A stretch of 63,149 nt of DNA, the filler included, from Chrysochromulina tobinii (taxonomy: Eukaryota): the NCBI GenBank assembly GCA_001275005.1. It is 8 parts of 8 records of this genome, joined end to end, with 100 filler letters (N's around TTAATTAATTAA, not from the genome) between each part and the next. Parts side by side here need not be neighbours in the genome. Positions count along the whole stretch, not along the records: positions 1 to 6,564 come from JWZX01000214.1; positions 6,665 to 9,800 come from JWZX01000215.1; positions 9,901 to 25,161 come from JWZX01000217.1; positions 25,262 to 38,668 come from JWZX01000218.1; positions 38,769 to 46,212 come from JWZX01000219.1; positions 46,313 to 56,190 come from JWZX01000220.1; positions 56,291 to 61,850 come from JWZX01000223.1; 1 more part is not named here. The stretch is one strand, 5' to 3'. The first letter of the stretch is position 1. Each line of letters begins with the position of its first letter. Under the pieces are notes generated by a model that saw nothing but the letters and a program-made list of their open reading frames with translations, ran no database searches and was not told the DNA's origin. The position numbers were made by a program, and so were the translations under genes. This document shows, piece by piece, positions 4,587-60,306 of this stretch.

Positions 4587-6564
4587 TCAGCAGCCCTTTT
4601 TCATCAGGCGCTTGCGAGCCACCGTTGGCGCGGCGAAGGCCTCCTCCGTGAAGATGTCATCCACGTCATCGCCCGACGCCATCGCCGCCTTTGGTGCCAG
4701 TGCTGTGGCACCGGGCGCCGTGACGGGCGCCTCGGCCGCCCGCTGTGCCGCATCGCCATCGCCGTCCTTCCCAGCACCTCTGTCCGTTCCCACTGCCTCC
4801 TCCTCTTCAGACATCCCGTCGTCGTCGTCGTCGTCGTCGTCGTCGCTGCCGTCGTCGCTGCCGTCGTCGACATACTCGCTGCCGTCGCTCACCTCGTCAC
4901 TCGAGCTCGTAACCTCGCTCGAGCTCGCTTCGTCACTCGAAGATTCGTCACTCCCCTTGATCCACCCGTCCGTGTTGTCCGAACTTGCCTCGTCCTCACT
5001 CGCCTTCTCACCCTTGACGAGCCGCCGCGCCGCCGCGCTCACGCCCCGCCCACTACCGCGCCCACTGCCCCGGCCGCTGCCGCGCCCACCACGGCGCCCA
5101 TGCCCACCGCGTCCACCGAACGCGCTCCTGACACCAGCGCCGTCACGGGCGCCTCCAACGCCAGCGCCGTCGCGGGCACCGCCAACGCCAGCGCCGTCGC
5201 GGGCACCGCCATCACCAGCGCCGCCAGCACGATGAACGCCGCCCCGAGCATCGCGCGCGCCGTCCCGAGCACCCACATTGGGCGAGTTCTCCTTGTCATC
5301 ACGCGCGCCGTCCCGAGCACCCACATTGGGCGAGTTCTCCTTGCCATCGATATCGTCGACGCCGCCACCCTTACGCGACAGTACGTCATCGACACCACGA
5401 CGGCGCGCGAGAGACGGAGGGCAAGGCGAAGATGAAGGGACCTTAAGCCCGTCCTCAATCCCGTCCTCCTGCCCTTCCTCAATCCCGTCCTCCTGCACGT
5501 CCTCGTGCCCGTCCTCATATCCCGCTGCGCGGATAGGCGGCGCGAGCAGCACATCAACCACGTCGCCTTCGGTCATACCCGCCTGTGAACGCGCCGTATA
5601 CGAGCGTCAGTCAATCAGCATGCAATCAGCACGTACTCAGGATCATTCTCGCACGTAATCAGCATGCACTCCGCATGCACTCAGCGTGTAATCAGCATGC
5701 ACTCACCTCGACAGGCGTCGTATTGAGCGCGAGCGGCGCGCCTCGGAAGCGCAGCGCCGTCGCGGGCGCCGCGAGTCCGAATTGCTTGCAGAAGGCCGCC
5801 TGCAGCTTGTGAAGTCTCGTCGTGGTGCGGCATTTGACCTGCAGCTCGCGTCCATCGGATGCGGGAGGCAATAAGGGCATGCAATGAGGGAGGCAATCAG
5901 CATGCAAGCATTTGACCTGCAGCTCGCGTCCATCGGATGCGGGAGGCAATAAGGGCATGCAATGAGGGAGGCAATCAGCATGCAAGCATTTGACCTGCAG
6001 CTCGCGTCCATCGGATGCTAGCAGATGAACGTTGATGACGCCGTTGATGACGCCCCTAGGCACACTGTGCGTTGGGACGGGTAAGGCTGACGGCACTGCA
6101 CGCTCCGCCTCCGCCCAACACAGCGCCTCCGCCTCCTCTGCCCGTGCATTCGTCCTGCTCGCCGTGGCCCAAGACGACGCGTCGCTCGCCGCTGCCGTCT
6201 TCCTCCCCTTGGGCCTCGGCGCCGTGGCGGGCGCTTCCGCCGAGGCCAGCGCCATCGCACCCAACGCGTCGGCGAGCGACGCGTCGTCTTGGGCGTCATC
6301 GGTCGGCGCTCGGGACGGCGCTGCCCCCTTTTTGGGCGCCGGCTTGCGCTTGCGCGGCGCACGCGTGGATCCCGGAGGCGCTGCATCGGGCGCTGCCTCG
6401 TCCTCGCCGCCACCATTGGCGTCGTGTTGGGCAGCGGCGATGGCGGCCTCGTCCTCGCTCTCGGAGAGGACGGCCTCGGCAGCGAGCGCCGCCTCCGCCG
6501 CCTCCTCCGCCGCGAGCGCCGTCTTGAGCGCCGCTTCGTCCTTTGGAGTCCCCCCCGCCCCCCC
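4587..6564 (-). CDS. SUMO-like (Rad60-SLD type) domain protein with acidic/RGG tail; 5' partial
   Basis: Removing introns 5994-5839 and 5706-5583 gives INVHLLASDGRELQVKCRTTTRLHKLQAAFCKQFGLAAPATALRFRGAPLALNTTPVEAGMTEGDVVDVLL, a typical SUMO/ubiquitin-like fold pattern. Confidence 0.7.
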
Positions 6565-6664
6565 NNNNNNNNNNNNNNNNNNNNNNNNNNNNNNNNNNNN
6601 NNNNNNNNTTAATTAATTAANNNNNNNNNNNNNNNNNNNNNNNNNNNNNNNNNNNNNNNNNNNN
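6565..6664. other. Artificial contig linker
   Basis: 44 N + TTAATTAATTAA (stops in all six frames) + 44 N. Confidence 0.99.
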
Positions 6665-6771
6665 GGCAATCAGAGGTGAATATCCAACGGTGCCAAAAGA
6701 GGTCATCAGAGGCAATCAGAGGCAATCAGAGGTGAATATCCAACGGTGCCATTAGAGGTCATCAGAGGTCA

Positions 6772-7665
6772 TCAGGGGCAATCAGTGGTGAATATCCAAC
6801 GGTGCACACCCGCGAACGCGGCCGCCTGCCCCGAGCCGTGTAAGCCAAGCGATGCCGCGACCTTTGCTGCCCGGCGTGGCGAGAGCTCATCCGCGAGGGA
6901 CGTGCTGGCCTCGCTGGCCTCGCGCATCGAAACGCCGGCGCTGCGCGTGCGCCGATGGCCACGCACGCGTGGTGCTGGCTCCTTATTAGGCAACAAAGGC
7001 TCCTTGAGCAGCACAGCCGCTGCCGCCGACAAGGGAGAAGGGGGCTCGATGGTCGCGCTGTGCCCTGGGGCGGGGTGAAGCGGAGGGGAAGCAAGACGCT
7101 CCTCGCGCCCGGCACGACGCTCCACGCGCCCGCACCGTCCTTTCTCGGCGCTGCCCGCCGCGCCCGCAGCTGCTCCGCCCGAGACCCTAATTAGGAAGCC
7201 AACCTCACCTTCCTCATAAGGAAGGTCTGGGTCCATTCGAATGCGCCGTGGAGAGAGCTCGTCGTCGTCGGCGGTGGCGGGTAGGACGACGAGACCGTCC
7301 ACCAGCTGGCTCGCGTGTGTGAGTCTCGTGAGGTGTTGGGGCGGTACGGTGAGGTACACGACGCCCCGCAGCCACGTGTTGCGAGCGCACTTCTCCGCAT
7401 GGTCCGGATGGATCTTGAGCTCGCTCCCGAGCAGCGTCTCTTGGAAGAGAGCCACAGCCGAGAGGCAGGCGATCGGTGCGTGGAAGAGCGCAGCGAGTGG
7501 CAGCGCGCAGCCCGCATCGCGTGCCGCCGGCAGCCACAGCCCAAGCCACGCGCGAGGGAGCAGCCAGAGGCGGCGAGAAAGGCCAGCAGCGTGCAGCCAG
7601 ACGCAAGCGGCCACGCCCGCCGCATGAAGCCACTGCAGATGGCGGAGGAGCTCGAGGAGGCGGAC
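6772..7665 (-). CDS. Internal exon of an uncharacterised protein
   Basis: Open frame begins right after an acceptor-like GAGTGCCTCCCTCATCAG (7683-7666) and ends in a decamer-repeat tract at about 6800. No recognised domain. Confidence 0.35.
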   Translation of the reverse strand, partial: VRLLELLRHLQWLHAAGVAACVWLHAAGLSRRLWLLPRAWLGLWLPAARDAGCALPLAALFHAPIACLSAVALFQETLLGSELKIHPDHAEKCARNTWLRGVVYLTVPPQHLTRLTHASQLVDGLVVLPATADDDELSPRRIRMDPDLPYEEGEVGFLIRVSGGAAAGAAGSAEKGRCGRVERRAGREERLASPPLHPAPGHSATIEPPSPLSAAAAVLLKEPLLPNKEPAPRVRGHRRTRSAGVSMREASEASTSLADELSPRRAAKVAASLGLHGSGQAAAFAGVHRWIFTTDCP

Positions 7666-7836
7666 CTGATGAGGGAGGCACTCGATATATGATCAAGATC
7701 CCATCACTATGCAGTCAATATGCAGTCAATATGCAGGTTCAGAATGGATCATCTACCACCGCGGGCATGGGCGTGCGCGCGCGCTTACACACACCGGGAG
7801 ACCGCCGCGCTGGCTCGCATCCGGCCTCCTCACGAG

Positions 7837-7936
7837 ACACTCTCCTCACAAGTGAACCTGGTCTCGGACTCGCCATCTTGCGCTTGGGAGCGCGATTGGA
7901 CCGGCTGTCGTCATCTGGCACATGCGAAGAGAGCAC
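7837..7936 (-). promoter_or_regulatory. SECIS element (type II) in the 3' UTR of the selenoprotein gene
   Basis: Helix I CTCTCTTCGCATGTG/CACTTGTGAGGAGAG; core ATGAC (7914-7910) opposite CGAG (7866-7863); imperfect helix II GACAGCCGGTC/GATGGCGAGTC; unpaired AA; apical mini-stem GCGCT-CCCA-AGCGC. Confidence 0.8.
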
Positions 7937-7968
7937 ACGAGGTGATCCCTGTTGCGGGCCACTCGCTT

Positions 7969-8481
7969 TTACTTGCTCTCCTCGGCGAGTTTTTGGAGCA
8001 AGCCGGACCCCTTCGACTCAACTTTCTTGGGGGCACGGCGCTGCTCACAAGCCGCCTTCACAGCCGCGCTGAAATCCCCTGACTCCGTCGAAGTCAGCAT
8101 GTCGATCAGATCGCAAATGCCGCGCATATCCTCTTCGGCGGTCGGTCCGGCAAGCCGAAGATCGCCGTTGAATTTGGACCACAGCAGCGTGCCCACTTTC
8201 GGCGAATAATTCTTCTCCGCCACTGGCGGGGGCGGCCACGACGAAACTCCGGGAAGGGCGACCGACACCTCAAAGCAGCCATTCGTCGTGGGCGCTTTGA
8301 GGCATGAGAATGCCACGCTGTCACCAAATCGCCCGGCCACGTATTCCTCGAGAGCTGTCGCCTGCTTCTTGTACCCTCACCCGCCTCAGAACTCGACGTG
8401 CAGAAGGGCTTTGGGCGAGGATAGCTGCAGCGCACTCGCCGAGCTCGCGAGGAGGAACGCAAGAACGCTGCGCTTCACCAT
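7969..8481 (-). CDS. SelW/Rdx-family selenoprotein with UxxU motif and signal peptide (about 170 aa)
   Basis: One frame reads MVKRSVLAFLLASSASALQLSSPKALLHVEF-TGA-GG-TGA-GYKKQATALEEYVAGRF...GCFEVSV...LLWSKFNGD. This matches SelW hallmarks (CxxUGY, GxFEV, LxHSKxxGD). UGA codons at 8388-8386 and 8379-8377; SECIS downstream. Confidence 0.85.
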
Positions 8482-8659
8482 CGCGATGCTCATGAAGGGT
8501 CCAGATTTGCCTGACGAATCTTGAGTTAGGGTCAGTTGAATCGAAGTGTGAAGAGAGAGAGTGTGTGAACTTACTAAGCTACCTACACATTGGCAGGACC
8601 CCCTGAAGTGTGAAGAGGGTTGCGTCCGCAAAACCCACCCTCTCTCTCTCAACCACTAG

Positions 8660-9172
8660 AAGCCACAGCGGCCCATACTCATTGCACCACAGGACTCTCT
8701 CCAGGACCGCCTAGCCACAGCGGTCCGCGCTCACTCCACCGATACCGTACTCTCTCTCAACGGACCACCACTAGCCACAGCGGCCCATACTCATTGCACC
8801 AGTACTCTCTCCAGACCGCCTAGCCACAGCGGTCTGCGCTCACTCCACCGATACTCTCTCACCCTCAACGGACCACCAAGGCCACAGCGGCCCATACTCA
8901 ATGCACCAGTACTCTCTCCAGACCGCCTAGCCACAGCGGTCTGCGCTCACTCCACCGATACTCTCTCACCCTCAACGGACCACCAAGGCCACAGCGGCCC
9001 ATACTCATTGCACCAGTACTCTCTCCAGACCGCCTAGCCACAGCGGTCCGCGCTCACTCCACCAAGACTCTCTCTCCCTCAACGTAGAACGTACCACCAC
9101 TAGCCACAGCGGCCCATAACTCACTGCACAAGTATTCTCTCTCCAGACCGCCTAGCCACAGCGGTCCGCGCT
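8660..9172. repeat. Minisatellite, about 4.5 copies of a ~107-115 bp unit made of two related halves
   Basis: GCCACAGCGGCCC recurs at about 8662, 8774, 8881, 8988 and 9103, alternating with CTAGCCACAGCGGTC. Confidence 0.9.
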
Positions 9173-9220
9173 CAGGTCTCGGCGCCCGCTTGTTTGTCTG
9201 CTTGTCCTGTCGGCGGCAGC

Positions 9221-9800
9221 CTATATGTGCTCGGTCTCGAGGCGGGGAACGTGGCCATCCGTGCTGGGCGTGCTCGTGCTGGCGTCTCCACCTGAGGACT
9301 CCACCTGCGGTGCCTCTGCGGTGACGGAGACGACGTGGAGCTCGCGGGTGAGGAAGGCGTGCCGCGAGGTGGAGTCGTGCTTCTCGCTGTGCTGCTTCCA
9401 CTTGGCACGTATCTTCGACTTCGCCTCAACTTGTCCACTTGCGCCGACGAGCTTAACGTGGCGCCGGAAGGCCAGGATCCACTGGCCAGCTGGGCCGACC
9501 TTGCCCTCACCATCGGGCTCGGTGAAGCGACGCAGGTACTTAAGCAGCGACATTTCGAAGAGGACGGTGAGGATCACGGGTACGGCGAGGAGCGCTGGGA
9601 GCAAGGCCGACATTATCGGATCGTTGGGGTAGGCGTTGGTCACCAAGGAGCTGACCAACGAGAAGAAGATGACGACCTGCGCCACCTGTGCAAGGATGTC
9701 GTCCTCATTTTTTACGTAGGGAGCGCAGACGCAGTAGGCGCCATACGACAGGAAGCAGATGATGAGCCCAAATATGAGCTGGGCCGGCGACCCCGCCGGG
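9221..9800 (-). CDS. C-terminal part of a multi-pass membrane protein; 5' partial
   Basis: Hydrophobic helices QLIFGLIICFLSYGAYCVCAPY, LAQVAQVVIFFSLVSSLV and LLPALLAVPVILTVLF; frame open from the contig edge. Confidence 0.65.
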
Positions 9801-9900
9801 NNNNNNNNNNNNNNNNNNNNNNNNNNNNNNNNNNNNNNNNNNNNTTAATTAATTAANNNNNNNNNNNNNNNNNNNNNNNNNNNNNNNNNNNNNNNNNNNN
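9801..9900. other. Artificial contig linker
   Basis: N44-TTAATTAATTAA-N44. Confidence 0.99.
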
Positions 9901-10810
9901 CCTTGTTGCTTTGGATGGCCTCGCAGACTGCGTTTACGCCCTCATCCTTGAGGCTGTTGGACGACAAATTCAGGGCCGTCAGCCCGCCTGTGACAACGGC
10001 CTGTGACAGGTCCGAAGCCAGCAGGATCACATCGGGCAGATTGAGGCTCTGCTTGGAGAAGTCAGCGGTGGTCTGATCGCGCCGGATGCCGCAAAGCGAG
10101 ACGCCCTTCTGCTTGGCGACTTCAGCAAGCATCTTGGCGGCCTCTGCATCAAGCTTATTGTACAGGAGGTCAATCACCGTCAGCCCGCCTGTGACGGCCG
10201 CCATGGCGGCCACAGACTTTGCTCCCACAGGACCGATGCTGTTGGCGCCCATGTTGAGCGACTCGAGCTTGGTCTCCTTGTTGCTCAGGATGGCCTCGCA
10301 GACTGCGCTTACGCCCTCATCCTTGAGGTCGTTGGACGACAAATCCAGGGCCATCAGCCCGCCCATGACGGGTATCAGACCCGCAACGACCATGCCTCCC
10401 TCGACTCCGACGTCCTTCCCCTTCAGGTCCAGCTCCGTGAGCGAGTTGGCGCGCATCTCTTTGATTGGGATTTCGTTGAAAAAATTGATGTTGAGGTTGC
10501 CAAGGACAGCAACTGCAAGCTGCACAGCGCCGTCGCCCGCAATGCTGTTTTGGCGGACGTCGATGCTTGTCAGCCCGCCCATGACAGGCACGAGGTATGC
10601 AAGAAGCATGCCACCCTGAACGCCGATATTTTGCTCACACAGGTTGAGCTCAGAGACGGAGTCGTCGCGCATCATCTGCACTGGAATGCCGCGCACCTCG
10701 CCAGAGCCGGCACAGGCAACAGCTGCAAGCAGGAGCTCGAGCGGCGGCTCGCCCTCTCCCTCGATGCAGCTGATGAGAGCAGTTTTGGCAGGGCCTCCAA
10801 GGAATGGCCT

Positions 10811-10843
<33 letters not shown>

Positions 10844-11668
10844 ATCCCTCTCGTCCAGATCCACCTCGCGGACCGCGGCCACACTCACCGTGAAGCCCTC
10901 CCAGCGCAGTCGGGCCAGGCTCGTCAGCATCCTCCCCGTCGCCGCCGCCTCCCATGGCCGGCCCGCGTCGACGAGGACCTTGATGTTGAGATCGGTGATC
11001 TCAGCCAGCTGAGTCGGCGCGGGCTGACCCTCGCAGCGGCTGAGGCGGGAGCAGAGCACGCGCCGCGCGAGCGCCAACCACGATTGGCTCACGCCCTTGA
11101 GCTCGGCCAGCGTGCCCACGTCGAGCATGCCCAGCGCCACCTCCCTGGCATCGTATGTGACTGCCATCCCCGACAGCGAGGGCTGTGGCAGCAGCGCGGG
11201 TGGCCCCGCCGCAGAGCCCGTCGTGGCTACTGATAGCTGCCCCTCCGGCGAGAACGCCGGCTCGGCGAGTGCCGCCACACGTTCCTCCGCACTGCCAAAG
11301 TCATCCGTTGCGCCGAGCAGCTCTCTGAGCTCATCGGCACGTTTGCCGTTGAGGCGTGTGGCGAGGGCGCACTGCGCGTGATTGAGCGCCCCGGGGGCGT
11401 CGAGGAAGCTGGCGCCCTCGATGAGCCTGAAGAGCTCCGAGATCGAGCACTGCTCGAGTCTCGCCGGCATGGAGTCGGCCTCGCACATCTCCCGGAGCAC
11501 TCCCAGCTCTGCCGCCGCAATCGTCGGCACCGGGTAGACGCCATCTTCGGTTGGAGCGTCGTCCATCATGTCTTTGAGCGTGCCTGCTCGCTGGGCCACC
11601 CGGCGCGTCCACTCGACAGCCTCGCCCTCGCGCGCCCGCAAGCGCACGCGCTCCTTGCCATCAGACAT
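9901..11668 (-). CDS. SKP1-like + F-box-like + RI-type LRR (NLRC3-like) protein; 3' partial
   Basis: N-terminus VRLRAREGEAV...TLKDMMDD...LFRLIEGASFLDAPGALN...LNGKRADELRELLGATDDF (SKP1); LDVGTLAELKGVSQSWLALAR (F-box-like); repeated LxxLDLSSNxLKDEGVxAVCEAI LRRs. Confidence 0.8.
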
Positions 11669-11994
11669 GATAGCGACTTGATGCGTCGCGTTGTGTCGTG
11701 CGCGACGCAACTTGTCGACTTTTTGACACGCTATTGAAAATCCTCCGGAGGTACATTTTTGATGTACTAAAAATCGGCGGAGGATCAGTCCAGATTCTGG
11801 ATAAGCGGAACCGCCCAGGTGTAAAATTTAGCGACGCTCAAGAGGCTCGTTAGAACTCTTTAGAAAGAAACCATACCGGTCTCTAGCTAAGGCAACATGT
11901 CATCTATGCCGAACAGCCTTCCTCTGGCACAAGCGCGTTGTGTTGAGCAGCATCTTTCGTTCGGCTTCGTCGGTCGGCGACGTCACCACGCAGA

Positions 11995-14900
11995 ATGGCC
12001 GTCCCGACGCCGCCGCTGCTCGTGCCCTACCGCGCCGTTGGCCTCGTGAGCGACGGCGTGCCCTTCGCCATCGAGCAGCTCGGCACCGAGACCTTTGTGA
12101 CCACCGCCATCGGCCGTACGTTCCAGGTCTTCTCCTTGGCCAAGCTGCGCCTCGCGTTCATCGGCGCGCAGCTGCCACGTGCCGTGACCGCGCTGTGCGC
12201 GGCGGGCGAGCGCACGATCGTCGCGTGCGGCACGGATGTGCACGTCTATCGGCGTGCCGAGCGCGAGCTGCTCCTCGATGGAGAGCACACGGCGCGCGTG
12301 CGTCACCTCCTCGTGCTCGGCGAGACGCTGCTTACCGTGTGCGAGAGCGGCGTGGTGATCGTGTGGGCGCTGGCCAACGGCGAGGTGCTGCGCCGGCTGC
12401 ACGCCGGCTTCGTGCCGAGTGCACTCTCGCACCCGGCCACCTACCTCAACAAGGTGCTGCTCGGTGCACCCGATGGCCGTCTGCAGCTGCTCAACGTGCG
12501 CTCCGGACAGCGGATCTACGAGTTCAAGGGGTGGGGCGCGCCCGTGCGATGCCTCGAGCAGTCTCCGGCGCTGGACGTGGTGGGCATCGGGCACGCCGAC
12601 GGGCGCATCGTGCTGCACAATCTGCGCGCCGATGCGAGCGTCCTCACGCTCGCGCACGAGAGTGGCGATGCATGCAACGCGCTCGCCTTTCGGACCGACG
12701 GCCGGGCGCACCTTGTGTCGGCGAGCTCGCTCGGCTCGTTGCATGTCTGGGACCTCGAGAAGCGCGTGCGGCTCACGTCGATTCCGCTCGCGCACGCGGG
12801 CGGAGTGCTCTGCGCCCATTTTGTGCGTGGTACGGCGGAGCTGCTCACCCTCGGCGAGGCCGAGAATGCTCTCAAGGTGTGGCTCTTCGATCAGCCTACG
12901 GGTGGTGCGCGGCTACTGCGCTCACGCTCGGGGCACTCGGCGCCGCCCTCGCTGGTGCGCTTCCATCGGGACGCGATTTTGGCCGGAGGGGCCCCTGCTG
13001 GGCAGGCTTACCTCCTCTCGGGAGGCGCCGACCGAACGCTCCGCCAGGCGGCAATCTGGACGACGCAGCAGGACGCCGAGTTTAGTCAGAAGCGCGAGAC
13101 GAGCAAGGCAAGCATGCATGTGACGGACATGGAGGCGCGCCGGCTGCCCCCGCTCACGGGCCTCGCCTCCTCACAAGTGCGCGAAACGGAGTGGGCCAAT
13201 GTCCTCACGTGCCATCAAGGTTCGGCCGCCGCGTACACGTGGCAGACGACTCGCCGAGCCCTCGCGCCGCACACGCTCCATTTGGGTTCGGGCCGACCCG
13301 TTACATCTGTGGCCATCTCGCCCTGCGGCAACTTTGGCTACTTGGGCGGCGAGGACGGCGCGCTCGAGAAGTTCAACTTGCAGTCGGGGCAGCGGCGCGC
13401 GGCCGTAAAGATCGGATCACGCCACCGCGGCGCTGTGCGTGGGCTCGCGACGGAGGCCCTCTCCAAGTGCGTCAGTGCATGCTGAGTGCCTCCCTCATTG
13501 CATGCTGAGTGCCTCCCTCATTGCATGCTGAGGGCCTCCCTCATCGCATGCTGAGTGCCTAAGGCACTCTCCCTCCAAGTGCTTCACCTTGATCGCCATC
13601 TGATGGCCATCTTGATGCCTCTCTGAGTGCCCTCTGAGTGCCCTCTGAGTGCCCTCTGAGTGCTCTCTGAGTATAGGTGCGTCTTCTCGGGCTCGTACGA
13701 CGGCACCATTTGCACGTGGCGGCCCGCCGACCTTCACTGCCTGGCGAGCCTTGATGCGGGCGCGCCGGTGGCCGCGCTGCGCCAGCATCGCGACTCCACC
13801 CTCCTCGCGGCTGCGTGCGATGACCATTGCATCCGTGTCTTCGATACACTCGTCGGGCGCGTCGTGCGCGAGCTGCGCGGCCATCGCAATACCATCACGG
13901 ATCTCGCCTGGTCCGCGGACGGCCGCTGGATCTTATCCACGTCACTCGATTCGACCATCCGCATCGTCGATGTGCCCTCCGGCGTGGCGATTGGATGGTC
14001 AGTGCCCTGCCCTTCTCCGCTGCCCTGTCCTTTGCCGCTGCCCTGTCCTTTGCCGCTGCCCTGTCCTTTCTCCGCTGCCCTGCCTTTCTCCGCTGCCCTG
14101 CCCTTCTCCGCTGCCCTGTCGTTTGCCGCTGCCCTGTCCTTTGCCGCTGCCCTGTCCTTTGCCCTCCGCCCTCCTCTGCCCCGCCCTCTGCCTGCCTCTG
14201 CCCTCTGTCTTTGTCTTGCCCTCTGCTCTGGGCCTCTCCCAGCACGCATACTAGGCCGGGCGGCTCTCCCCCCGTGAGCCGTCCGTCTTCCTTAGCCGTG
14301 CGACAGCGCCGTTGCGGGCTGCCCGCTGCCGCAAGGTGGAGGGTAGCCTGCGGCGAGGCTCAGCAAAGGGGGTGGCACCGCGTCACCATCGTGAGCGCCG
14401 CCGGGAACTGCGGGTCGCACACGCCGCATGAGGCAGCGGTCTCTGATCGGGGCCCTCTCCTCCTCCCCCTCTCTCCCCGCCACTGCTCACGTCGCTGCTC
14501 ACGTTGCATGCTCGGCCCTTTTCACGTTGCATGCTTGGCCCTTTTCACGTTGCATGCTCGGCCCTTATCTCGCAGGTATCTCGTGGCCGAGCCGCCCACC
14601 TCGATCACCGTCTCGCCCAACGGGGAGTACATCGCGACCGCGCACGCATCGACGAATGCGCTCTGCGTGTGGGCAAACCGCGCCTTCTTCTCGTCAGTGC
14701 TGCTCACACCCGCCTCGGATTCGCCGACGGCGCTCGAGATGCCAGTGGCCGCTAAGGGGGGCGAGGCTGAGGAGGAGGAGAGTGAGGCGGACGATGAGGA
14801 GGGCGCTCGGGACGGCGCGCCGACGAAGGCTGTGGCCGACGACGACGAGGACGACGACGAGGACGAGGAGGACGAGGAGGACGAGGGTGCGGCAACGTCG

Positions 14901-15572: not shown

Positions 15573-15603
<31 letters not shown>

Positions 15604-17791: not shown

Positions 17792-17833
<42 letters not shown>

Positions 17834-20800
17834 CCCATACTTGCTCGACAGAGCAAATCTGCGCAGAGCAAATCGACCAAGTATGATGCACAGCTGGTCG
17901 GCACGCCGATCGCCCTGCGCTGGCTCGCCGAGCCCGGGCAGCCGTGGTTTTATGGAGTGGTGGCTGCATACAAGGACGGCCGCCACCTCGTCAAGTACAC
18001 CGATGGCGACTCGCGCTGGCACATCATCAGTGATTACGAGAGGGACGGCACCGTGCGTTGGCCCGCGGGCACTACGCATAGAGGAACTCCTGATCGCATG
18101 CTCAGGATGATGGGCGGCAGGATGATGGGCGGCGCTGGCTCCTCGAGCTCCACGGGCGACGGGCGGCCCGTGCCGGTGCCCGTGGGCACGATGCCCGTGG
18201 GCACGAACGCGGCTGTGGGCGACCGGCTGGAGGCGCGAGACACGCGAGGCAAGTGGGCCGAGGCGCGCGTCCTCGAGGTACGCGAGAACACCGAGTCGGC
18301 GCTGCTCAGGGAGATCAAGGTGCACTATTCTGATGACCTCTGATGACCTCTGATGACCTCTGATGACCTCTGATTGCCTCTGATGACCTCTGATTGCCTC
18401 TGATTGCCTGCCTCATCAGGTGCACTATTCCGGGTTCAACTCGCGCTTTGACGAGTGGATCACCGTGAACGAGGGGCGGCTGCGCAATTGGCGTGGAGGC
18501 CGCGGACGAAGGAGGGCGGAGGAGTTGGCTGCGGCATTGCTGGGTATGCCTACGCCCGCGCCTAGGCTCGAGCAGCCACAACCTGGAGTGGCCGCCATAG
18601 ACCGCAAGGCTCTACTGCGCCTGCTGCCCCGCGAGCCGCCTTTGTTACGCGGCGCGAGCTCGGCCCTCAGCTCGGACAGCGGCAGCACCAAGGCGGCAGC
18701 AGCGAACAAGGTGGAGACGAACGACGAAGGAAAGCAGCGCTACCGCGGCTCCTTCACGACGCCGGAGGAGGCGGCCTTGTGCAACGCGAGGCATATTGGG
18801 GCGGAGCGAGCGGCGGCAGAGGCGGCGGAGGCGCGTGGCGAAGGGCCGCAGCCGCTTACAGCGGAAGAGGCCTGGGCGGCTGCGGCGGCCGAGGGGCTCG
18901 AGCTGGTGCCGTCGTTGAGCAATGAGACGGGCTTCAAGTGTGTGAGCAAGGATAGAGACAAGTACGTGGCGCAGCTCAGAGAGAATGGCAAGACCTGCTA
19001 CCTCGGCGCCTTCGCGACGCCGGAGGAGGCGGCCTTGTGGTACGCGAGGCATGTTGGGGCGGAGCGAGCGGCGGCAGAGGCGGCGGAGGCGAGGGGCGAA
19101 GGGCCGCAGCCGCTCACGGCGGACGAGGCCTGGGCGGCTGCGGCGGCCGAGGGGCTCGAGCTGATCACGTCGTCGGGCAATGAGACGGGCTTCAAGGGCG
19201 TGCGCAAGGATAGAGACAAGTACCGGGTGCAGATCCGGGAGGAAGGCAGAGCGATCTGCCTCGGCAGCTTCGCGACGCCGGAGGAGGCAGCCTTACACTT
19301 TGCGAGGTACCTAGGAGCGGAGCGAGCGGCGGCAGAGGCGGCGGAGGTGAAGAGCAAACAGGCACAGATCGAGCAGTCCCTCACGGCGGATGAGGTGAGG
19401 GCGATCGCAGCGGCCGAGGGGCTCGAGCTCATCCTCTCGAAGAATGAGACGGGCTTCAAGGGCGTGAGCAGGCAGACCTCTTTGAGAGGCGGGGAAACCA
19501 AATACAAGGCGGAGGTTTGGATGAATGGCAAGAATCATTGCCTTGGCATCTTCTCAACGGCAGAAGAGGGGGCTCTATGCTACGCGAGGTACGTCGGAGC
19601 CAAGCAAGCGACGGCCAAGGCGGCGAATACGAGTATATACGTCGGAGCCAAGCAAGCGATGGCCAAGGCGACGGCGACGGCTCGCTCGGTCCCTTCCTCA
19701 GATGAGGCGGCAGCTTCAGCGGCAGTGAAGAGGGAAACGCTTAGCGACGAGGCGGGTGCAGGCTCGTCGTCTGCCTCCGTGAAGTCCAACGTGGCGCGCA
19801 CCTCGTGCAGTGAGCCTGGGCCCTTCAAGCGGCAGCGGCCGAGCGGTGCCGAAGCTCTCGAGGAGAGATCCAATCTCGGGGCGAGGTCCGATCTCCCCGA
19901 GCGATCGAGATCCAATCTCGGGGCGAGGTCCGATGTCCCCGAGCGATCGGAGCTCGAGGCAGCGGCGCTTCTCGAGACCGCCCTGGCGCGCGTGGCAGCC
20001 TCCACGAAGGCCGCGGAGGTGGCGAGGGCACAGGCGGCGGCGGCGACCACCGCTGCAGAAGCGGCAGCAGCAGCCTTGGCTGCAAAGGAGCAGGAGACGG
20101 AGGCTACTTTGGCCGCAAAGGAAGCTGAGAGCGCAGCCCTGCGCCTCAAGGCAGCCCTCAAGGAGCAGGAGGCGGCGGCAGCCTTGGCTGCAAAGGAGGC
20201 GGAGAGTGAAGCCCTGCGCCAACTCGCGGCCGAAAAGGCGCAGGAGGCGGCGGCAGCCTTGGCTGCAAAGGAGGAGGAGAGCGCGGCTCTGCGCCACCAG
20301 CTGAGTGTCCTCTCTAACGGCATTGCCGCGAGCCACGGCCGCCACGGTAGCTACGGTGCCGGCAGCAGCGCGGACGGAGCCTCCGAGGTCACCGAAGCCG
20401 CCGCGCGTCTCGAAGATTGGAAATGGACGGCGAGCGGCGCGCTCATTGGAGCGGTGTACGGCCGAAAGGGCTACAAGGACGGCGAGGTGATGACGACGAG
20501 TGTAGTGCCGCCGTGTGGCCGCTACGAAGGGCATGTGACGACCTCGACGGGCACCACGTACCTTTTAGGTCAGCCGGCCGCCGCTGAAGGCGAGGCGGCC
20601 GGTCGACTGGCGAGTGTTGCCACCCGAACGGGCGCCAAACGGAAAAAGATGGACTTGCCTAATATGGAGCATTGGGAGGGGCAGATCCTTGCCTCGTGCC
20701 GCCAAAAACCAGGGGACGAGCCCTCACACGTGACTGGGCGTGACAGCCCGGATTCGTTGCCTTCGGATGCGCAAGGAGCCTGTGCCCAAGGTATCCTGGC

Positions 20801-40324: not shown

Positions 40325-42571
40325 TCACCTGTAGAAGGCGTGCGGGCCGAGCAGCCTGCATCGGGCCTGGTGGTCAACATTGCTTCTCGCGCAGCAGAGT
40401 TCGTGGAGGTGATCGACGCAGTAATTGAGGCACTCCTCCTGTGCAGCTCTATCCGTATGGATGGCGCAGCAGGGGTTCTTCGTCGGCCCCACCGAGTCGC
40501 AGTAATACCCATCTCCCCACAGTGGCGTATGGGGACCGTCATTGGGGTTGGGTGCAGGGTTCGGCGGGGGCGGTTTGGGCGAATTAGGCGGGCTAGCATG
40601 AGAAGGCTCGCCATGGGTAGGCTCGACATTAGGTTCGTCATGAAGAGGTTCGCCGTGAGGAGGCTCACCGTGAGGAGGCTCGCCATGAGGTTCGCCATGA
40701 GAAGGTTCGCCGTGAGGAGGCTCACCGTGAGGAGGCTCGCCATGAGGTTCGCCATGAGAAGGTTCGCCGTGAGGAGGCTCACCGTGAGGAGGCTCGACAT
40801 TAGGTTCGCCATGAGGAGGTTCGCCGTGAGGAGGCTCACCGTGAGGAGGCTCGACATTAGGTTCGCCATGAGGAGGTTCGCCGTGAGGAGGCTCACCGTG
40901 AGGAGGCTCATCTTGGTGATTAGGTTCGCCATGAGGCGGCTCGCCGTGAGGAGGCTCACCGTGAGGAGGCTCATCTTGGTGGGGCGACTCCTTAGGCAGT
41001 TCCCCAGTTGGCATCCCTCTGGCCGGCGGCTCCCCCAGCGGCTCCCCCAGTGGCTCCCCCAGCGGCGGCTTCCCCGTCGGCGGGTCACCTTGGAGCGGCT
41101 CCCCGAAGTCATCCTCTTCCTCAAAAGTAGGGACCCATCCCTCCTCATTGGGAAATACCTCCTCAGTAGCCGGCTCATCGACGTAACGCGTTCCCCACGG
41201 AGGGCCACCGTGGGGCGGTCCACCGCCCGGCGGTCCACCGCCCGGTGGTCCACCGCCTGGCGGCCCACCATGCGGGCAAAAGTGGGCAATGACCTCTAGC
41301 TTGATGCTGTCTGGGCAAGATCTGGCGCAGCCACCCATGGCCATCATGGCCTCTTCGCAATCCTCAGGCTCGTGCATGCAATTCCTTGCGCACTTCGATG
41401 TGCAAAAGGTGAGCATGTGATCCTGTGGTACCTTCCCACCACAGCCAGTTATGGGCGAGCTGGAACCGGAGCCAGAGCCGGGGCCTGAGCCTGAGGTGGG
41501 GCCTTCTTCTTCGGGCTGGCCCACAGAGTGCTCAGGCGGCGAGTGATGCGGCGTCGGCGAGCGAACGAGCGGCGACGGCGGTGGCGAGTGGCGATGCGGC
41601 GGCGGCGAGCGGATGCGCGGTGGCGGTGGTGAGTGGCTCGGTTTTGGCAAGGAAACCGGCGACGGCGACAGCGAGTGGATCGGTGTCGAGGCAGGCGACG
41701 GCGACGGCGAGTGGCTCGGTTTCGAGGCAGGCGACGTCGACGGCGAGTGGCTCGGTTTCGAAGCAGGCGATGGCGACGGCGAGTGGCTCGGTTTCGAAGC
41801 AGGCGATGGCGACGGCGAGCGGCTCGGTTTCGAGGCAGGCGACGGTGACGGCGTGCGCCTCGGTTTCGAGGAAGGCGATGGCGACGGCGAGCGGCTCGGT
41901 TTCGAGGCAGGCGACGGCGACGGCGAGTGGCTCGGTTTCGAGGCAGGCGATGGCGACGGCGAGTGGCGGCCCGCGGAGCCCGAAGAGCCCGAAGACGAAC
42001 CATGACCCGAGGACGACCCGCCGGAGGAGCCGTGACTGGCAGATGCACCGGAGGAGCCTGAGGTCGAAGAGCCCGATGAGCCCGAAGACGAGCCATGACC
42101 CGAGGACGACCCGCCGGAAGAGCCACCGGAGTTTTCACCGGAGGAGCCACCGGCAGAGCCGCCGGAGTTTCCACCGTTTGAGCCACCGTGAGAGCCACCG
42201 TTAGAGCCACTGGACGCGCCCGCGGACCCGTGCGAGCCCTGGTCATCGGCCGCGGGTGCATGTGTTGGCTCGAACCCTGGTCGGTCCTCATCGCCCGGCC
42301 AGTGTTCAAGGCGGCATGCTGCCTGACAGCCACAATGATTCCGCATCGAGGGTTTCGTGCACTCGTCTGCAACCTGGCACTTGCAGTCTAGAGAGACCGT
42401 GCGATTGATGTCGGGCGCCAGGATGCTCGCTAGCTCCATTCCGCTCGCGATTTCCATGTCGCTGGCTGGCTCCGTGCCCATTGAGTCAGCGTGCAGCACG
42501 TAATCCTGATTTAATCCTACACCCATGGCTACGGCGGGCGCGCAGCACAAGACCAGGAAGCGCGCCACCAT
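40325..42571 (-). CDS. Secreted repetitive Pro/Ser/His-rich protein with Cys-rich modules
   Basis: Signal peptide MVARFLVLCCAPAVAMG; GS-rich linker; about 9 x HSPSPSPASKPS; about 20 x GEPPH; three Cys clusters. Confidence 0.75.
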   Translation of the reverse strand: MVARFLVLCCAPAVAMGVGLNQDYVLHADSMGTEPASDMEIASGMELASILAPDINRTVSLDCKCQVADECTKPSMRNHCGCQAACRLEHWPGDEDRPGFEPTHAPAADDQGSHGSAGASSGSNGGSHGGSNGGNSGGSAGGSSGENSGGSSGGSSSGHGSSSGSSGSSTSGSSGASASHGSSGGSSSGHGSSSGSSGSAGRHSPSPSPASKPSHSPSPSPASKPSRSPSPSPSSKPRRTPSPSPASKPSRSPSPSPASKPSHSPSPSPASKPSHSPSTSPASKPSHSPSPSPASTPIHSLSPSPVSLPKPSHSPPPPRIRSPPPHRHSPPPSPLVRSPTPHHSPPEHSVGQPEEEGPTSGSGPGSGSGSSSPITGCGGKVPQDHMLTFCTSKCARNCMHEPEDCEEAMMAMGGCARSCPDSIKLEVIAHFCPHGGPPGGGPPGGGPPGGGPPHGGPPWGTRYVDEPATEEVFPNEEGWVPTFEEEDDFGEPLQGDPPTGKPPLGEPLGEPLGEPPARGMPTGELPKESPHQDEPPHGEPPHGEPPHGEPNHQDEPPHGEPPHGEPPHGEPNVEPPHGEPPHGEPPHGEPNVEPPHGEPPHGEPSHGEPHGEPPHGEPPHGEPSHGEPHGEPPHGEPPHGEPLHDEPNVEPTHGEPSHASPPNSPKPPPPNPAPNPNDGPHTPLWGDGYYCDSVGPTKNPCCAIHTDRAAQEECLNYCVDHLHELCCARSNVDHQARCRLLGPHAFYR

Positions 42572-56190: not shown

Positions 56191-56290
56191 NNNNNNNNNN
56201 NNNNNNNNNNNNNNNNNNNNNNNNNNNNNNNNNNTTAATTAATTAANNNNNNNNNNNNNNNNNNNNNNNNNNNNNNNNNNNNNNNNNNNN
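56191..56290. other. Artificial contig linker
   Basis: N44-TTAATTAATTAA-N44. Confidence 0.99.
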
Positions 56291-56351
56291 CCGCCGCCGC
56301 CGCCGTCGGCCGCCGGCCGCCCGAGCTGCTGACGTTCTCAACGGGGAAGAC

Positions 56352-57584
56352 ATGGATGACGAACTCCGAGCAATCATTGCCTTTTCGCTCGAGACCGCAG
56401 CGGCAGAGGAGGAGCTCCGTCAAGCTCTTGCTCTCAGTGCTGGTGAACGAGGACGTCCGACGCTTCATCACGTACCTTTCCAAGCACGGTTTCGGTGGCT
56501 GCGGCAGCAAGTTCCTCGACCCATGGGCCGTCGCGCTCCTGCAGACGGCGGTGCGCTGCCACGTGCTGGAGGCGCTGCTTCGGTTGCCCTGCATCCAGAG
56601 GAAGACGATGCGATGATGGAAGCTCAACCCGCTGCTTTCAGGGCGGAAGAAGAGGAGAGGGTGGCGATGCTGCCTGCGCCTCGGCATCCTCCGCATGGAA
56701 CGCCGCAGCCACCCGTTGAGCGCGATTGGCTTCAGGGGTCACTCCAAGCGTTCCAAGAACTCTCCCAAAGGTTCATTCCTCACATCGATTTCTTGAGGCA
56801 GAGGGGCGGGAGCCTTGAGGTAGACCCTCGGTCTGCACCCGGTGATCGAGAGCTGGCCATGGGCCTGGTGTTTCCGACGGAGTTCGCGCTCGAAAGGCTC
56901 GAGAGGCGTGCTCACGAGTGCCGACTTTACGAGTCAGAAGTGTGTGCACGACTTGAGGAAGCGGCCAGGGGCACAGCAGAGCAGCGTAGTAGGGAGCGAG
57001 GACGATTGGAAACGGATCTGCTCAGGCTGCAAGGTGCGGCAGAGGCTGCGATGCGGGAGGCGGAAGCAGCCCGCCAGCGCGAGCGCGCGGCGCGGGAAGA
57101 GCAGGCACGCCGAGCAGAGGAGCAGAGGCGCCAAGAAGAGCAGGCACGCTTGCGACGAGAGCGTGAAGAAGCCGAGCGGCAGAAGCGGGAACGGGACCTT
57201 GTCCGTGCACGGAACGACGTGGCGGCGCTGCTCGACCCCAAGTGCCCACGTTGCCAGGCCGTGTTTGACGGCTTCGATGGCTGCGCCGCTCTCTACTGCA
57301 GGAACTGCCCGTGCAAGTTTTGCGCCCTCTGCTTAAAGGACTGCGGCGATGATGCGCATCAGCACGTGCGCGCATGCCCGCAGAGGGGAAACGCGATGAG
57401 GGACGACTACTTCTTGAAGGCGCCCGAGATGCAGGTGTGGCAGAGTGTGTTGGTGCCGCAGCGACGCGCCAAGCTAGAACAGTTCTGGGCCGGCTTGGAC
57501 CCCGCGATGCGGGTGCAGTGCAGCTCGGACGCCTTCATCAAGGGTACATACCGTGACCACCGGCTTGCGCATTTGCTAGCGTAA
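56352..57584 (+). CDS. IBR/RING2 (RBR-type) zinc finger protein with UIM-like motifs; possibly 5' partial
   Basis: KCPRCQAVFDGFDGCAALYCRNCPCKFCALCLKDCGDDAHQHVRACP; EEELRQALALS. Confidence 0.75.
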   Translation: MDDELRAIIAFSLETAAAEEELRQALALSAGERGRPTLHHVPFQARFRWLRQQVPRPMGRRAPADGGALPRAGGAASVALHPEEDDAMMEAQPAAFRAEEEERVAMLPAPRHPPHGTPQPPVERDWLQGSLQAFQELSQRFIPHIDFLRQRGGSLEVDPRSAPGDRELAMGLVFPTEFALERLERRAHECRLYESEVCARLEEAARGTAEQRSRERGRLETDLLRLQGAAEAAMREAEAARQRERAAREEQARRAEEQRRQEEQARLRREREEAERQKRERDLVRARNDVAALLDPKCPRCQAVFDGFDGCAALYCRNCPCKFCALCLKDCGDDAHQHVRACPQRGNAMRDDYFLKAPEMQVWQSVLVPQRRAKLEQFWAGLDPAMRVQCSSDAFIKGTYRDHRLAHLLA

Positions 57585-57722
57585 CTCGACAACGACATGC
57601 GACGTACAGCTGCCGTGCGTTTACACTAATTTTGACTCCGTCTCTCCTCCCTCGCACCTCTGCGCTACACACAGCACCGCTACACCGCGACAGCGCGACT
57701 CAACACCGCTAGCGCTACACGC

Positions 57723-60306
57723 TCAGCACTCGTGCTTGCTCATCACCTGGGTGAGCACCGAAGTTTTGGTCGCCTGGAGCATCGTCATGAACTCGTGGTA
57801 CTGTAGGAAGCCGTCCTTGTCCTTATCGAAGTACGCGAGAATATTGGCCGCCTCGTCCTCCGTGATCGTATTGTCGCGCTGCCGATCGAGCCCGCGGAAG
57901 CCATTGCCGTTGACGGCGACGCCCGCGCGCTGCATCGCGTTCATGAACTCCTCGATGGAAACGTACCTGAGGAGGGAGGCAATCAGAGGCCCATCAGAGG
58001 CTCATCAGAGGCTCATCAGTGCCAATCATCCCACGTGGAGACGTCCTGAGGAGGGGCGCAATCATCGGCCATCCGAAGTCCATCAGTGGCAGTCAGCGGC
58101 CATGAGCGGCCGTCAGGGGCCGTCAGTAGTCATCAGCGGCTGTGAGCGGCCATCCGAGGGGCCATCAGTGGTCATCAGTAGTCATCAGCGTACCCGTTGC
58201 CATCGGGATCGCAACGCTCGTACATCTTCTTCATCTGCGAGTGTTGCTCGAAGAGGAACTCACGCAGCCGCGTGAGCAGTTTCTTCTCTCGATCGCTCAG
58301 CCGTTCCACAGAGCGCCCGAGCACCGGGTTCGGCTTCACTAGCTGAGCACCGCGCCCGTCTCCACCGCCAAAGAGCATGAGGAAGCGAGGGACGGAGATG
58401 ATGGGGAGAGCCCCCGAGATGGCCGAGAGGAGCTTGGCGGTGCGCACATCGCTGAGGTGGTAGAGCAGCTGTGCAGCGAATGCTTGGAAGACGGCCGTGT
58501 CCACCCCGTGCGATGCATAGGCCTCGGGCTGAGTCGCTAGGCGCGGCTCGCGCACGCACGCAGCCAGGGCCTGCTCGGGCGTCGCGTGCACATACTTTAG
58601 ACGCTTCTTGATCGCGTCGATGATCTCCGCATCGCTCAGCGAGTCGGGCAGGTTGCCCGCCGTCCACGCGTACACACCCTTTTCAAAGATCTCGGTCTCG
58701 GAGGTGGACTGTGGGAATTGGGTGAGGCCGGAGGCGCTCAGGTTGACCCGCGCCCCCTTCATCGCCTCCTCGTGCTCGCGCTGCTGGTTCTTGAGCTCTT
58801 GCAGCTCCGCCGCCATCCGCTCCTTTTCGAGACGCTCCGCCTCCACCTGAATGCAATGAGGGAGGCAATCAGATTCAATCAGATGCAATCAGATGCAATC
58901 AGATGCAATCAGATGCAATCAGCCACCGCTCCTTTTCGAGACGCTCCTGTCATCAAATGCAATCAAAGGCCATCAAGAGGCCATCAAGAGGCCATCAAGA
59001 GGCCATCAAGAGGCCATCAAGAGGCCATCACCTGCTCCGCGAGAGCGTCCGCCTGAGCTTGGGCCTGGGCGGCGAGGGCCTGTGCTTGGCGACTCATTCC
59101 CTCAAAACGCTTGCGCTCGGCGAGGGCTGCCTCGCGTGCGGCCGCCTCCGCCTCCGCGCGGCGCTGAAGCTCCGCCTTACGCTGCGTGTCCGCGAGCATC
59201 TGCCTGCGCCGCATCTCCTCCTCCCTAGCTGCTTGTTGCTGCGCGGCGAGATGCGCGCTGCGCTCGGCACCATGCGCCTCGAGTGCCGCCTGCTGCCGGG
59301 CGAGCGCCTCCTGCTGCCGAGCGATCATGGCCATGGCCTCCTGCTCACGACGGCGCGCTTCGGCCGCGGCCGCCCGCGCCTCAGCCGCCTCCCTCTCCGC
59401 CTGCTGCCGAGCCGTTTCCATTTGTTGACGAGACTTGTCTTGCATGCGCTTGGCCGTGGCGCTGCTCACGCCCCCGCCTCCCCCGCCTCCCCCGCCTCTG
59501 GACGTCAGACGGTTCGGGCCCCCACCAATCACGTCCGCGGGCGGCCCGGGCAGCTTGCGCCCGTCCGGGCTGTCGCCGCCGCCACCACGCCCAGTGTTGT
59601 GTCCGAGCACCGGTCCTTGATCTCCGTTGAGCTCGGCCTCGAAGGCGCCAAGCGTGCGCACAAACTCCCAGCAGGCGAGCTTGCCGTCGCCGTCGACGTC
59701 GAAGGCCTTGAAGACGTGGCGTGCGTCCGCGAGGTCCATCGAGAAGCCGAGCGAGTTCATCGCGGACACGAACTCGGACACATCGAGCTTGCCAGAGCCG
59801 TCGCGGTCCCAGGTCTTGAACGCCGAGCGGATGTTGATCTCCTTGTTGAAGACGACCTCGGCGACGCGGCGCACGGCCTGCTGGACCCCGTCTTCGGTAT
59901 CGTCCGCAACCTCGAGCGCCTCGCGATTCTCGGCCAACCGCATCAGGTGCTCCACGTGCGCCGCCTTCTGCGCCTCTGCGTGCGACTTGATCACCGGGCA
60001 CATGAAGTCCACCACCTCATGGTAATCGATGGTGCCGCCTCCGTCACGGTCAAACTTCTTGAAGGCGTAGTACAGCTCCTCCTCCGAGACGCCAATGTTG
60101 AGCGCGGCTGCCGTGCTGCAGAATTCGTTAAAGTCGATCTCTCCGCTCCCGTCGGCGTCTGAGGCACGGAACGCTGCTTCGAGCACGGCACGGTGGTTCT
60201 GCCTGTCGCCGATGGCCAGGTGGAGCTTCACGGCGATCTCAGCGCGCACGCGCTCCTCGGCGAGCGCCTTGCCGACGCCGCGGTTCACACTGCCGCCCTG
60301 ACCCAT
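57723..60306 (-). CDS. Multi-EF-hand calcium-binding protein (exons 60306-59032, 58846-58194, 57966-57723)
   Basis: EF loops DADGSGEIDFNEF, DRDGGGTIDYHEV, DRDGSGKLDVSEF, DVDGDGKLACWEF, DPDGNGYVSIEEF (across an intron) and DKDKDGFLQYHEF; MGQGGS myristoylation-like start. Confidence 0.88.

What the first reader, a model, noticed from the sequence alone, without database searches (positions are those of the whole stretch)
5583..59031. Family of decamer-repeat introns carrying copies of their own flanking exons: possible intron-generating mechanism
Seen: introns in unrelated genes on different contigs (5583-5706, 5839-5994, 13467-13676, 18320-18419, 57967-58193, 58847-59031) are built from TGATTGCCTC/TGATGACCTC/TGAGTGCCTC/TGATTGCATC units. 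The units are always on the sense strand and often include TGCCTCCCTCAT(TGCA). Several intron starts copy the next exon start: GTGCACTATTC (18320 vs 18420), GTGCGTC (13467 vs 13677), GTACG (58193 vs 57966), GTCAAATGC (5994 vs 5838). Known: CTGAY fits the branch-point consensus; introner transposons create introns in some algae, but as discrete elements of consistent sequence. Inference: variable repeat number plus captured local exon sequence fits templated repeat addition with template switching at AG|GT proto-splice sites better than a fixed element.
Basis: partly seen in the sequence, partly recalled or inferred. Interest (0 to 1): 0.8.

Follow-up and report, generated by a model that had tools for sequence, protein, structure and literature searches.

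The report
Introns born by copying their target
In the freshwater alga Chrysochromulina, many introns are a short run of shared splice-signal repeats sitting between two copies (10-55 bases) of the gene's own sequence, and at least one appears to be missing from some strains, so new introns are likely being made by a repair-type copying error that borrows DNA from existing introns rather than by a fixed transposon.

Summary
Real and widespread in this genome. The window is Chrysochromulina tobinii/parva DNA. All six introns and all four exon copies are at the stated places. One (13467-13676) is spliced in two RNA studies. In 749 kb of related contigs, 65 of 173 repeat-type acceptors have a copy of the next exon's start just ahead of the repeats (control 0.2). 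The 54 at the donor are 10-55 nt long and 17 are perfect. Exon starts look like donors even without a copy. Mirror-image and spanning duplications also occur. Joins show microhomology, and one whole intron was copied 2.9 kb within a gene. Read-through ORFs suggest intron 13467 is absent in a close relative, and that a 26-nt-copy intron is polymorphic within the species. Best model: microhomology-guided templated insertion with target duplication (55%); RNA-primed insertion 22%. It is not a classic Introner: no fixed length or fixed duplication, and a published survey lists none for C. tobinii. This scan reported the same footprint earlier on another piece of this genome (e1-2577349).

The parts
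5583..5706 (-). Intron of 11-mer units in a SUMO-like (Rad60-SLD) gene; no exon copy
   Evidence: splicing inferred from frame
5839..5994 (-). Two tandem 78-nt units; each is a repeat insert between copies of a 33-nt target spanning CAG|GT (24 nt of exon 1 + 9 nt of exon 2)
   Evidence: in frame and stop-free, splicing inferred from the split Rad60-SLD domain, no RNA test
6665..6810 (-). Partial repeat array cut by the contig end; three copies of a 19-nt non-unit segment alternate with decamers
   Evidence: intron status not tested
13467..13676 (+). RNA-confirmed intron in a Utp21/WDR36-like gene; 7-nt exon-2 copy at the donor; internal 9-nt copy of the exon junction at 13573
   Evidence: read through by the ORF of a close relative, P0002
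13998..14575 (+). RNA-confirmed second intron of the same gene; other repeat units, no long exon copy
   Evidence: P0002 diverges at this site as if it also has an intron there
18320..18419 (+). Cleanest example: 11-nt exon-2 copy, eight decamers and the acceptor end, in a Tudor-knot domain
   Evidence: not among the RNA joints shown
57967..58193 (-). Intron in an EF-hand gene; 5-nt donor match only; internal acceptor near 58046 followed by a diverged exon-2 copy; position shared with a distant haptophyte
   Evidence: spliced model matches C. tobinii KOO53445.1
58847..59031 (-). Intron in the same gene; internal CAG plus an exact 22-nt copy of exon-2 bases 9-30 at 58947-58926
   Evidence: site read through by P0132 and P0136

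Best explanation
These are spliced introns whose insert of branch-site repeats lies between two copies of 10-55 nt of the host gene, and they likely arise when a DNA strand being repaired or replicated switches template, by short homology, onto an existing intron and then rejoins its own gene a little upstream. Inferred steps: (1) synthesis runs through an AG|GT-like site and some way into what becomes exon 2; (2) the strand end anneals by 1-5 nt to a CTGAT-type unit of an existing intron, of which there are thousands; (3) it copies units and the constant acceptor end; (4) it rejoins its own template at the GT, so the target is duplicated, the first copy supplies the donor and the insert supplies branch site and acceptor. 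Other switch points give the mirror form (insert brings the donor, an exon-1 copy brings the AG) and the spanning form. Selection would keep only sense-strand inserts at donor-like sites. Afterwards slippage changes the unit number, unequal exchange doubles whole units, the same copying rewrites old intron bodies, and the copies decay. Shown: structure, splicing, strand, variable duplication, microhomology, one cis-copied intron. Inferred: gain, DNA template, repair pathway.
For: Exon-2 copy just ahead of the first unit in 65 of 173 acceptors, control 0.2. Of these, 54 are at a donor, 10-55 nt long, median 22.5, 17 perfect, mean identity 94%. In 16 RNA-defined introns, 3 score 8 or more against 2 of 240 mismatched pairs; permutation 2 of 200,000. 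Exon starts are donor-like even with no copy: GY in 71 of 82, GTR in 51 of 57 against a 55% background, p 1.5e-8. Flanking direct repeats in 78 of 329 arrays (control 2), in three geometries: 36 start at the donor, 11 end at the acceptor, 16 span AG|GY. Junction overlap averages 2.27 nt against 1.10 in 33 of 54 testable cases; 0 of 200 shuffles reach it. L036 introns 7644 and 10512 are 97 of 101 identical at non-homologous sites; the first carries the second's exon copy, and both flanks share short homology, pointing to a template that included exon flanks. P0168 (6 contigs, longest 17,966 bp) and P0172 (8,770 bp) start in one intron, end in the next, and read through the site of L036 intron 8306, while P0167 (50 contigs) stops after a copy. 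More distant ORFs ending in intron-like sequence lack 6 and 7 of the L036 sites. Short tandem duplications cover 9.8% of the window.
Against: No intron-less DNA allele was seen directly: 0 of 54 junctions in the loci, and none in DNA run X7 among the joints shown. Absence rests on ORF read-through, and the collection also holds partly spliced transcripts (P0130, P0164); assembly collapse of the duplication is not excluded. Most acceptors (108 of 173) have no detectable long copy. Sites 57967 and probably L036 8637 are shared with other haptophytes. Neighbouring introns are not more alike in common k-mers (13 of 97 pairs against 18.9%), only in rare ones (6 of 97 against 163 of 8,215). Loci were picked by a 19-nt acceptor motif, which favours the donor-copy class. 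Some rows of the minor classes are low-complexity or cut off. No enzyme was identified.
Confidence: 0.55

Rival explanations
1. Target-primed reverse transcription: a non-LTR retrotransposon RT copies excised-intron RNA or pre-mRNA into a staggered nick, giving a fixed 3' end, a truncated 5' end with microhomology and a variable target duplication.
For: Constant 19-nt 3' end, which is about the branch-site-to-AG tail; variable insert of 28-231 nt and variable duplication; 5' microhomology; strict sense polarity, 427 against 9. A Pavlovales introner family is classed non-LTR with the same splice geometry (PMC12130899 supplement row).
Against: The mirror class has the opposite polarity (11 of 78). 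No A-tail in the examples read. The cis-copied intron has homology in both exon flanks, which an excised intron would not need. No partner RT was seen, though none was properly searched for.
Confidence: 0.22
2. No net gain: old introns are remodelled. A tandem duplication across a splice site, followed by deletion between the two AG|GT sites, leaves an intron that starts with an exon-2 copy or ends with an exon-1 copy. The repeats are a selected splice signal expanded by slippage.
For: Intermediates exist: 11 of 65 copies follow an internal acceptor, and donor-spanning duplications are visible in L036. Alleles with one donor carry different bodies. Site 57967 is old. Unit number varies between alleles. 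Loss by recombination between the copies could give intron-less alleles.
Against: It does not explain donor-like exon starts out to +3 in introns without a copy, the absence of most L036 sites in relatives, or a whole intron at a new site.
Confidence: 0.13
3. A conventional non-autonomous DNA-transposon Introner whose copies have been scrambled by minisatellite turnover.
For: Donor taken from a target duplication and acceptor carried, as in Symbiodinium and Polarella classes. Marine Chrysochromulina MAGs have Introners. The unit start and the acceptor end are complementary over 5-7 nt (sequence).
Against: Duplication length is not fixed (10-55 nt) even among perfect copies; no shared full-length element, and only one near-identical pair among the top 30 alignments read. 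The 2025 survey lists 0 families for C. tobinii.
Confidence: 0.07

Closest known systems
Intron gain by staggered double-strand-break repair in Daphnia pulex (PMC4202315, passages; review PMC3443670, passages)
   Same: A direct repeat of the adjacent exon at the far end of the new intron, variable length, polymorphic and parallel gains, later internal duplications.
   Different: Daphnia repeats are 4-12 bp (33 cases); here 10-55 bp. Here the filler is a genome-wide family of branch-site repeats with a ready-made acceptor, apparently copied from other introns.
Introners that co-opt the 5' site from a target duplication: Symbiodinium and Polarella classes 4/5 and 6/8/10 (bioRxiv 10.1101/2020.10.14.339549, passages); Chrysochromulina sp. 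MAG families (bioRxiv 10.1101/2022.06.06.494994, passages)
   Same: One splice site carried, the other from the duplicated target; downstream exons start like donors.
   Different: Those have fixed 4- or 8-nt duplications and a conserved element; the Chrysochromulina example carries the 5' site with a 4-bp duplication. Here there is neither a fixed size nor a fixed body.
Emiliania huxleyi introner family 24 (PMC12130899, supplement row)
   Same: Haptophyte; co-opts 5', carries 3'; noted as '10bp terminal direct repeats'; mechanism unknown.
   Different: Five copies, 2-nt duplication called; sequence not seen by me. The same survey lists no family for C. tobinii.
Tandem genomic duplication model and intron transposition (PMC3443670, passages)
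   Same: Duplication of an AG|GT segment gives both splice sites (5839-5994, spanning class); a whole intron copied to a new site in its own gene (L036).
   Different: Pure duplication has no foreign filler, and the reverse-splicing form of transposition makes no long target copy.
10-11-bp strand-biased intron repeats of E. huxleyi (Read et al. 2013, Nature; recalled, not held)
   Same: Decamer/11-mer repeats in introns near the 3' site, strand-biased.
   Different: As I recall, read there as a splicing motif; I recall no link to exon copies or intron birth. Unverified.

Membership tests
Introner, DNA-transposon/MITE type | Many near-identical full-length introns at unrelated sites | tested here: not met
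   Only units and the 19-nt end are shared; lengths 54-242; one 97/101 pair within a gene
Introner, DNA-transposon/MITE type | Target-site duplication of fixed length | tested here: not met
   10-55 nt in 54 cases
Introner, DNA-transposon/MITE type | Terminal inverted repeats | tested here: inconclusive
   5-7 nt complementarity between unit start and acceptor end; two introns folded only
Introner, DNA-transposon/MITE type | One splice site carried, the other co-opted from the target | tested here: met
Introner, DNA-transposon/MITE type | Absent at the orthologous site in close relatives | tested here: met
   Indirect, by ORF read-through, for 13467 and L036 8306; not met for 57967
Introner, DNA-transposon/MITE type | Autonomous partner (transposase) | not tested
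   No whole genome held
Non-LTR (TPRT) insertion | Variable target duplication, fixed 3' end, truncated 5' end with microhomology | tested here: met
   For the donor-copy class; the mirror class has the opposite polarity
Non-LTR (TPRT) insertion | 3' tail shared with a LINE partner; RT/endonuclease present | not tested
   No genome-wide search possible; no A-tail in examples read
Break-repair intron gain (Daphnia type) | Direct repeat of the adjacent exon at the opposite intron end, variable length | tested here: met
Break-repair intron gain (Daphnia type) | Origin at a DNA break, dependent on end-joining enzymes | not testable with these tools
   Needs genetics
Tandem genomic duplication | Both splice sites from a duplicated AG|GT segment with no foreign filler | tested here: not met
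   Both sites come from the duplication in the spanning class, but a repeat filler lies between

The most novel reading that the evidence does not exclude
A self-feeding, transposase-free intron factory: existing introns serve as copy templates, so every intron supplies the branch site and acceptor for new ones. Most introns of this lineage were born this way, it still runs, and surveys that look for look-alike introns miss it. In its boldest form the template is spliceosome-held intron RNA read by a reverse transcriptase or an RNA-templated repair polymerase.
Probability: 0.35. Interest if true: 0.85.

Novelty: new variant of a known kind. Interest (0 to 1): 0.67.

Why it matters
Where new spliceosomal introns come from is a long-standing question. 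The 2025 survey calls Introners the only mechanism able to explain bursts of gain and lists none for C. tobinii. Here is a cultured alga with a sequenced genome in which 38% of one large intron class keeps a readable birth scar, scars run from perfect to decayed, one gene has 24 introns that are mostly missing in relatives, and at least one site appears polymorphic. That makes the break-repair and template-switch models of intron gain testable at genome scale and in the lab. It also warns that short-read assemblies and gene models of haptophytes break or err at these arrays.

Tried and rejected
No whole genome is held, so there are no genome-wide counts or RT/transposase search. Two viral-contig scans found 0 matches. 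The 50%-cluster protein search never ran, so wider orthologue sampling is open. Intron-less junctions: 0 of 54 in the loci. Only two locus pairs from different samples overlapped; they showed unit-number change and no presence/absence. A first microhomology count was biased and was replaced by the shuffle test. Exon-1-end copies inside donor-copy introns: 0 of 54 at 8 nt or more. General similarity of neighbouring introns was not elevated. Mismatches by codon position (13/320, 24/316, 29/332; 28 synonymous, 38 not; 5 cases dropped for unclear frame) fit drift of both copies and do not point to a coding history for the copy. The read-through list is wrong for P0167, P0159 and the last site of P0164 (alignment forced through copy or intron), so those were read by eye. 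The multi-copy segment at 9974-11676 is a leucine-rich-repeat-type gene by eye, not an RT. Zero-length exons were rejected as the cause of donor-like exon starts, because RNA shows those bases are exonic in L036. Not found in print: nine searches gave no paper describing these exon copies in haptophytes. The Nature E. huxleyi paper and its supplement are not held, 2 of 14 supplement files of PMC12130899 were not searched, and the 2022 supplement was cut, with about 32 of 214 Chrysochromulina places seen.
Full report
Source. The window is eight contigs joined by N-spacers. The spliced model of the EF-hand gene matches, by eye, Chrysochromulina tobinii KOO53445.1, and the same cluster holds a C. 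parva protein. No whole genome was held, so I scanned metagenome contigs for the 19-nt acceptor motif. That gave 140 stretches, 134 loci and 809 kb, with about 3,000 stretches estimated in the collection. Eight overlapping loci were dropped, leaving 749 kb with the window. These loci were selected by the motif, so the fractions below describe that class.

Observation. The exact start matches are 1, 9, 7, 11, 5 and 3 nt. They lie in four genes: SUMO-like, Utp21-like, Tudor-knot and EF-hand. Units are on the sense strand, 49 to 3 in the six introns and 427 to 9 upstream of 179 acceptors. RNA contigs skip 13467-13676 in 2 of 3 RNA runs and 13998-14575 in 3 of 3; the DNA run skips neither. 18320-18419 was not among the joints shown. 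5839-5994 is in frame without stops, so its splicing is inferred from the domain it splits.

Anatomy. The common form is exon 1, then GT plus a copy of the start of exon 2, then 10-12-nt units with a TGAT/TGAG core, then a nearly constant end of 19 nt, then exon 2. A copy scoring 10 or more lies just ahead of the first unit in 65 of 173 acceptors, against 0.2 in random pairings. Eleven of these follow an internal acceptor (doubled units). The other 54 are at a likely donor: 10-55 nt, median 22.5, 17 perfect, mean identity 94%, with inserts of 28-231 nt. To avoid defining donors by the copy, I laid RNA on an AAA-ATPase gene in L036. Twelve joints and two split contigs define 14 GT/GC..AG introns, none skipped in the DNA run. 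Removing 24 introns, 10 of them placed by frame, opens about 1,600 codons. In the 16 RNA-defined introns (14 plus 2 from the window), 3 have copies scoring 8 or more against 2 of 240 mismatched pairs; permutation 2 of 200,000. So long copies mark a minority of all introns, roughly a fifth to a third, but are far above chance.

The copy is a target duplication, not only an exon-2 copy. Across 329 arrays, 78 have a flanking direct repeat scoring 12 or more (control 2): 36 start at the donor, 11 end at the acceptor, 16 span AG|GY, 14 hold no splice pair and 1 is a unit duplication. Some rows in the minor classes are low-complexity or cut off. Window intron 5839-5994 is the spanning type, with 33 nt. 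Even where no copy is left, exon 2 starts like a donor: GY in 71 of 82, and a purine after GT in 51 of 57 against a 55% background. This is what is expected if the donor was taken from the target at birth; the same signature is reported for dinoflagellate introner-like elements (bioRxiv 10.1101/2020.10.14.339549, passages).

Gain. The evidence is indirect, from ORFs called on unspliced sequence. P0002 (95% identical over exon 2; NCBI source, 5,455-bp contig) reads across the site of 13467 and then diverges at the site of 13998. P0041 lacks both sites and has intron-like breaks at three others. For the EF-hand gene, P0132 and P0136 read across the 58847 site, but P0132 (68%) breaks exactly at the 57967 site, so that position is old or was gained twice. 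In L036, intron 8306-8383 has a 26-nt copy. P0168 (6 contigs, longest 17,966 bp), P0172 (8,770 bp) and P0159 begin in the upstream intron, end in the downstream one and read straight through this site, while P0167 (50 contigs) stops after a slightly longer copy. P0162 and P0163, which end in intron-like sequence, lack 6 and 7 L036 sites, so absence looks ancestral. Cautions: partly spliced transcripts are in the collection (P0130, P0164), an assembler could collapse a 26-30-nt duplication, and I saw no intron-less allele in DNA directly.

Mechanism. The join between copy and insert overlaps by 2.27 nt on average against 1.10 expected (33 of 54 testable; 0 of 200 shuffles). L036 introns 7644-7744 and 10512-10612 are 97 of 101 identical, 2.9 kb apart, at different places in the protein. 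The first carries the second's exon copy, and short homology extends into both exon flanks. That is an intron copied whole to a new site from a template that seems to have included its exons. Alleles sharing the first 14 nt or so of intron 8513 continue either into decamers or into a second repeat family, so the same copying rewrites old introns. Unit number differs by 8 between two alleles. Short tandem duplications are common here: 9.8% of the window, 91 of 121 rows with periods divisible by three. I therefore favour microhomology-guided template switching during DNA repair or replication, with existing introns as the source and selection keeping spliceable products (0.55). Target-primed reverse transcription of intron RNA explains the fixed 3' end and polarity equally well but fits the mirror class and flank homology less well (0.22). 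Remodelling alone (0.13) and a decayed DNA-transposon Introner (0.07) fit worse. No enzyme was identified.

Known systems. It works like the Daphnia staggered-break introns (repeats of 4-12 bp; PMC4202315, passages) in its duplication, and like donor-co-opting Introners in its splice geometry. It fails Introner membership on fixed duplication length and on a conserved element. Marine Chrysochromulina MAGs have Introners, the figured one with a 4-bp duplication. The 2025 survey lists 0 families for C. tobinii and a five-copy E. huxleyi family of unknown mechanism with the same geometry (supplement rows). The C. tobinii genome paper gives about one intron per gene and, in the passages seen, says nothing on intron repeats. 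Strand-biased 10-11-bp intron repeats in E. huxleyi are, as I recall, already published (not held), so the repeats as such are probably not new. Nine searches found no paper on the exon copies. It came after my own counts and is not independent support.

Verdict. A real feature and a new variant of known intron-gain mechanisms: long, variable target duplication plus splice-ready filler shared across the genome. Interest 0.67. The open points are direct proof of gain in DNA reads and whether the template is DNA or RNA.

Noticed in passing
L036:7644-7744 and L036:10512-10612: Whole-intron copy within one gene (97 of 101 identical), GC donors; the first is RNA-confirmed and carries the other site's exon copy.
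   Followed up: partly
L036:8513-8588, 8846-8999, 9354-9438, 9715-9791: Second intron repeat family (CATGCAAGTGCTCACC core; 51 hits in 22 loci); two of these four also start with a decayed exon-2 copy.
   Followed up: partly
L036:3200-11000: Multi-domain AAA ATPase (SpoVK/CbbX-like by a source's name) with 24 introns in 7.8 kb, 17 in phase 0, in a genome reported at about one intron per gene.
   Followed up: partly
window 57967-58193: The C. parva gene model has four extra residues (YVST before YVSI) at this junction, probably from the internal exon-2 copy being read as exon.
   Followed up: no
P0136, P0041 (unnamed haptophyte-like ORFs): Intron read-through translates to repeats consistent with CTGAT/CTGAC units, so related repeat introns probably occur in other haptophytes at other positions.
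   Followed up: no
decamer units generally: The unit start CTGATGA is the reverse complement of the acceptor end TCATCAG, and it also resembles box C/D motifs (recalled); meaning unknown.
   Followed up: partly
window 7665-7790 (minus strand): Another acceptor of the family preceded by 11-mer units; donor and gene not worked out.
   Followed up: no
window 9845-11827 (minus strand): Multi-copy gene, leucine-rich-repeat-like by eye, with 84-92% matches in L017 and L020.
   Followed up: no
window 8652-9174, 18739-19470, 40597-40972: Long tandem repeats with periods of 107, 258 and 57 nt, part of a general high load of local duplications.
   Followed up: no
window spacers: Contigs are joined by N44-TTAATTAATTAA-N44, an assembly artefact.
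   Followed up: yes
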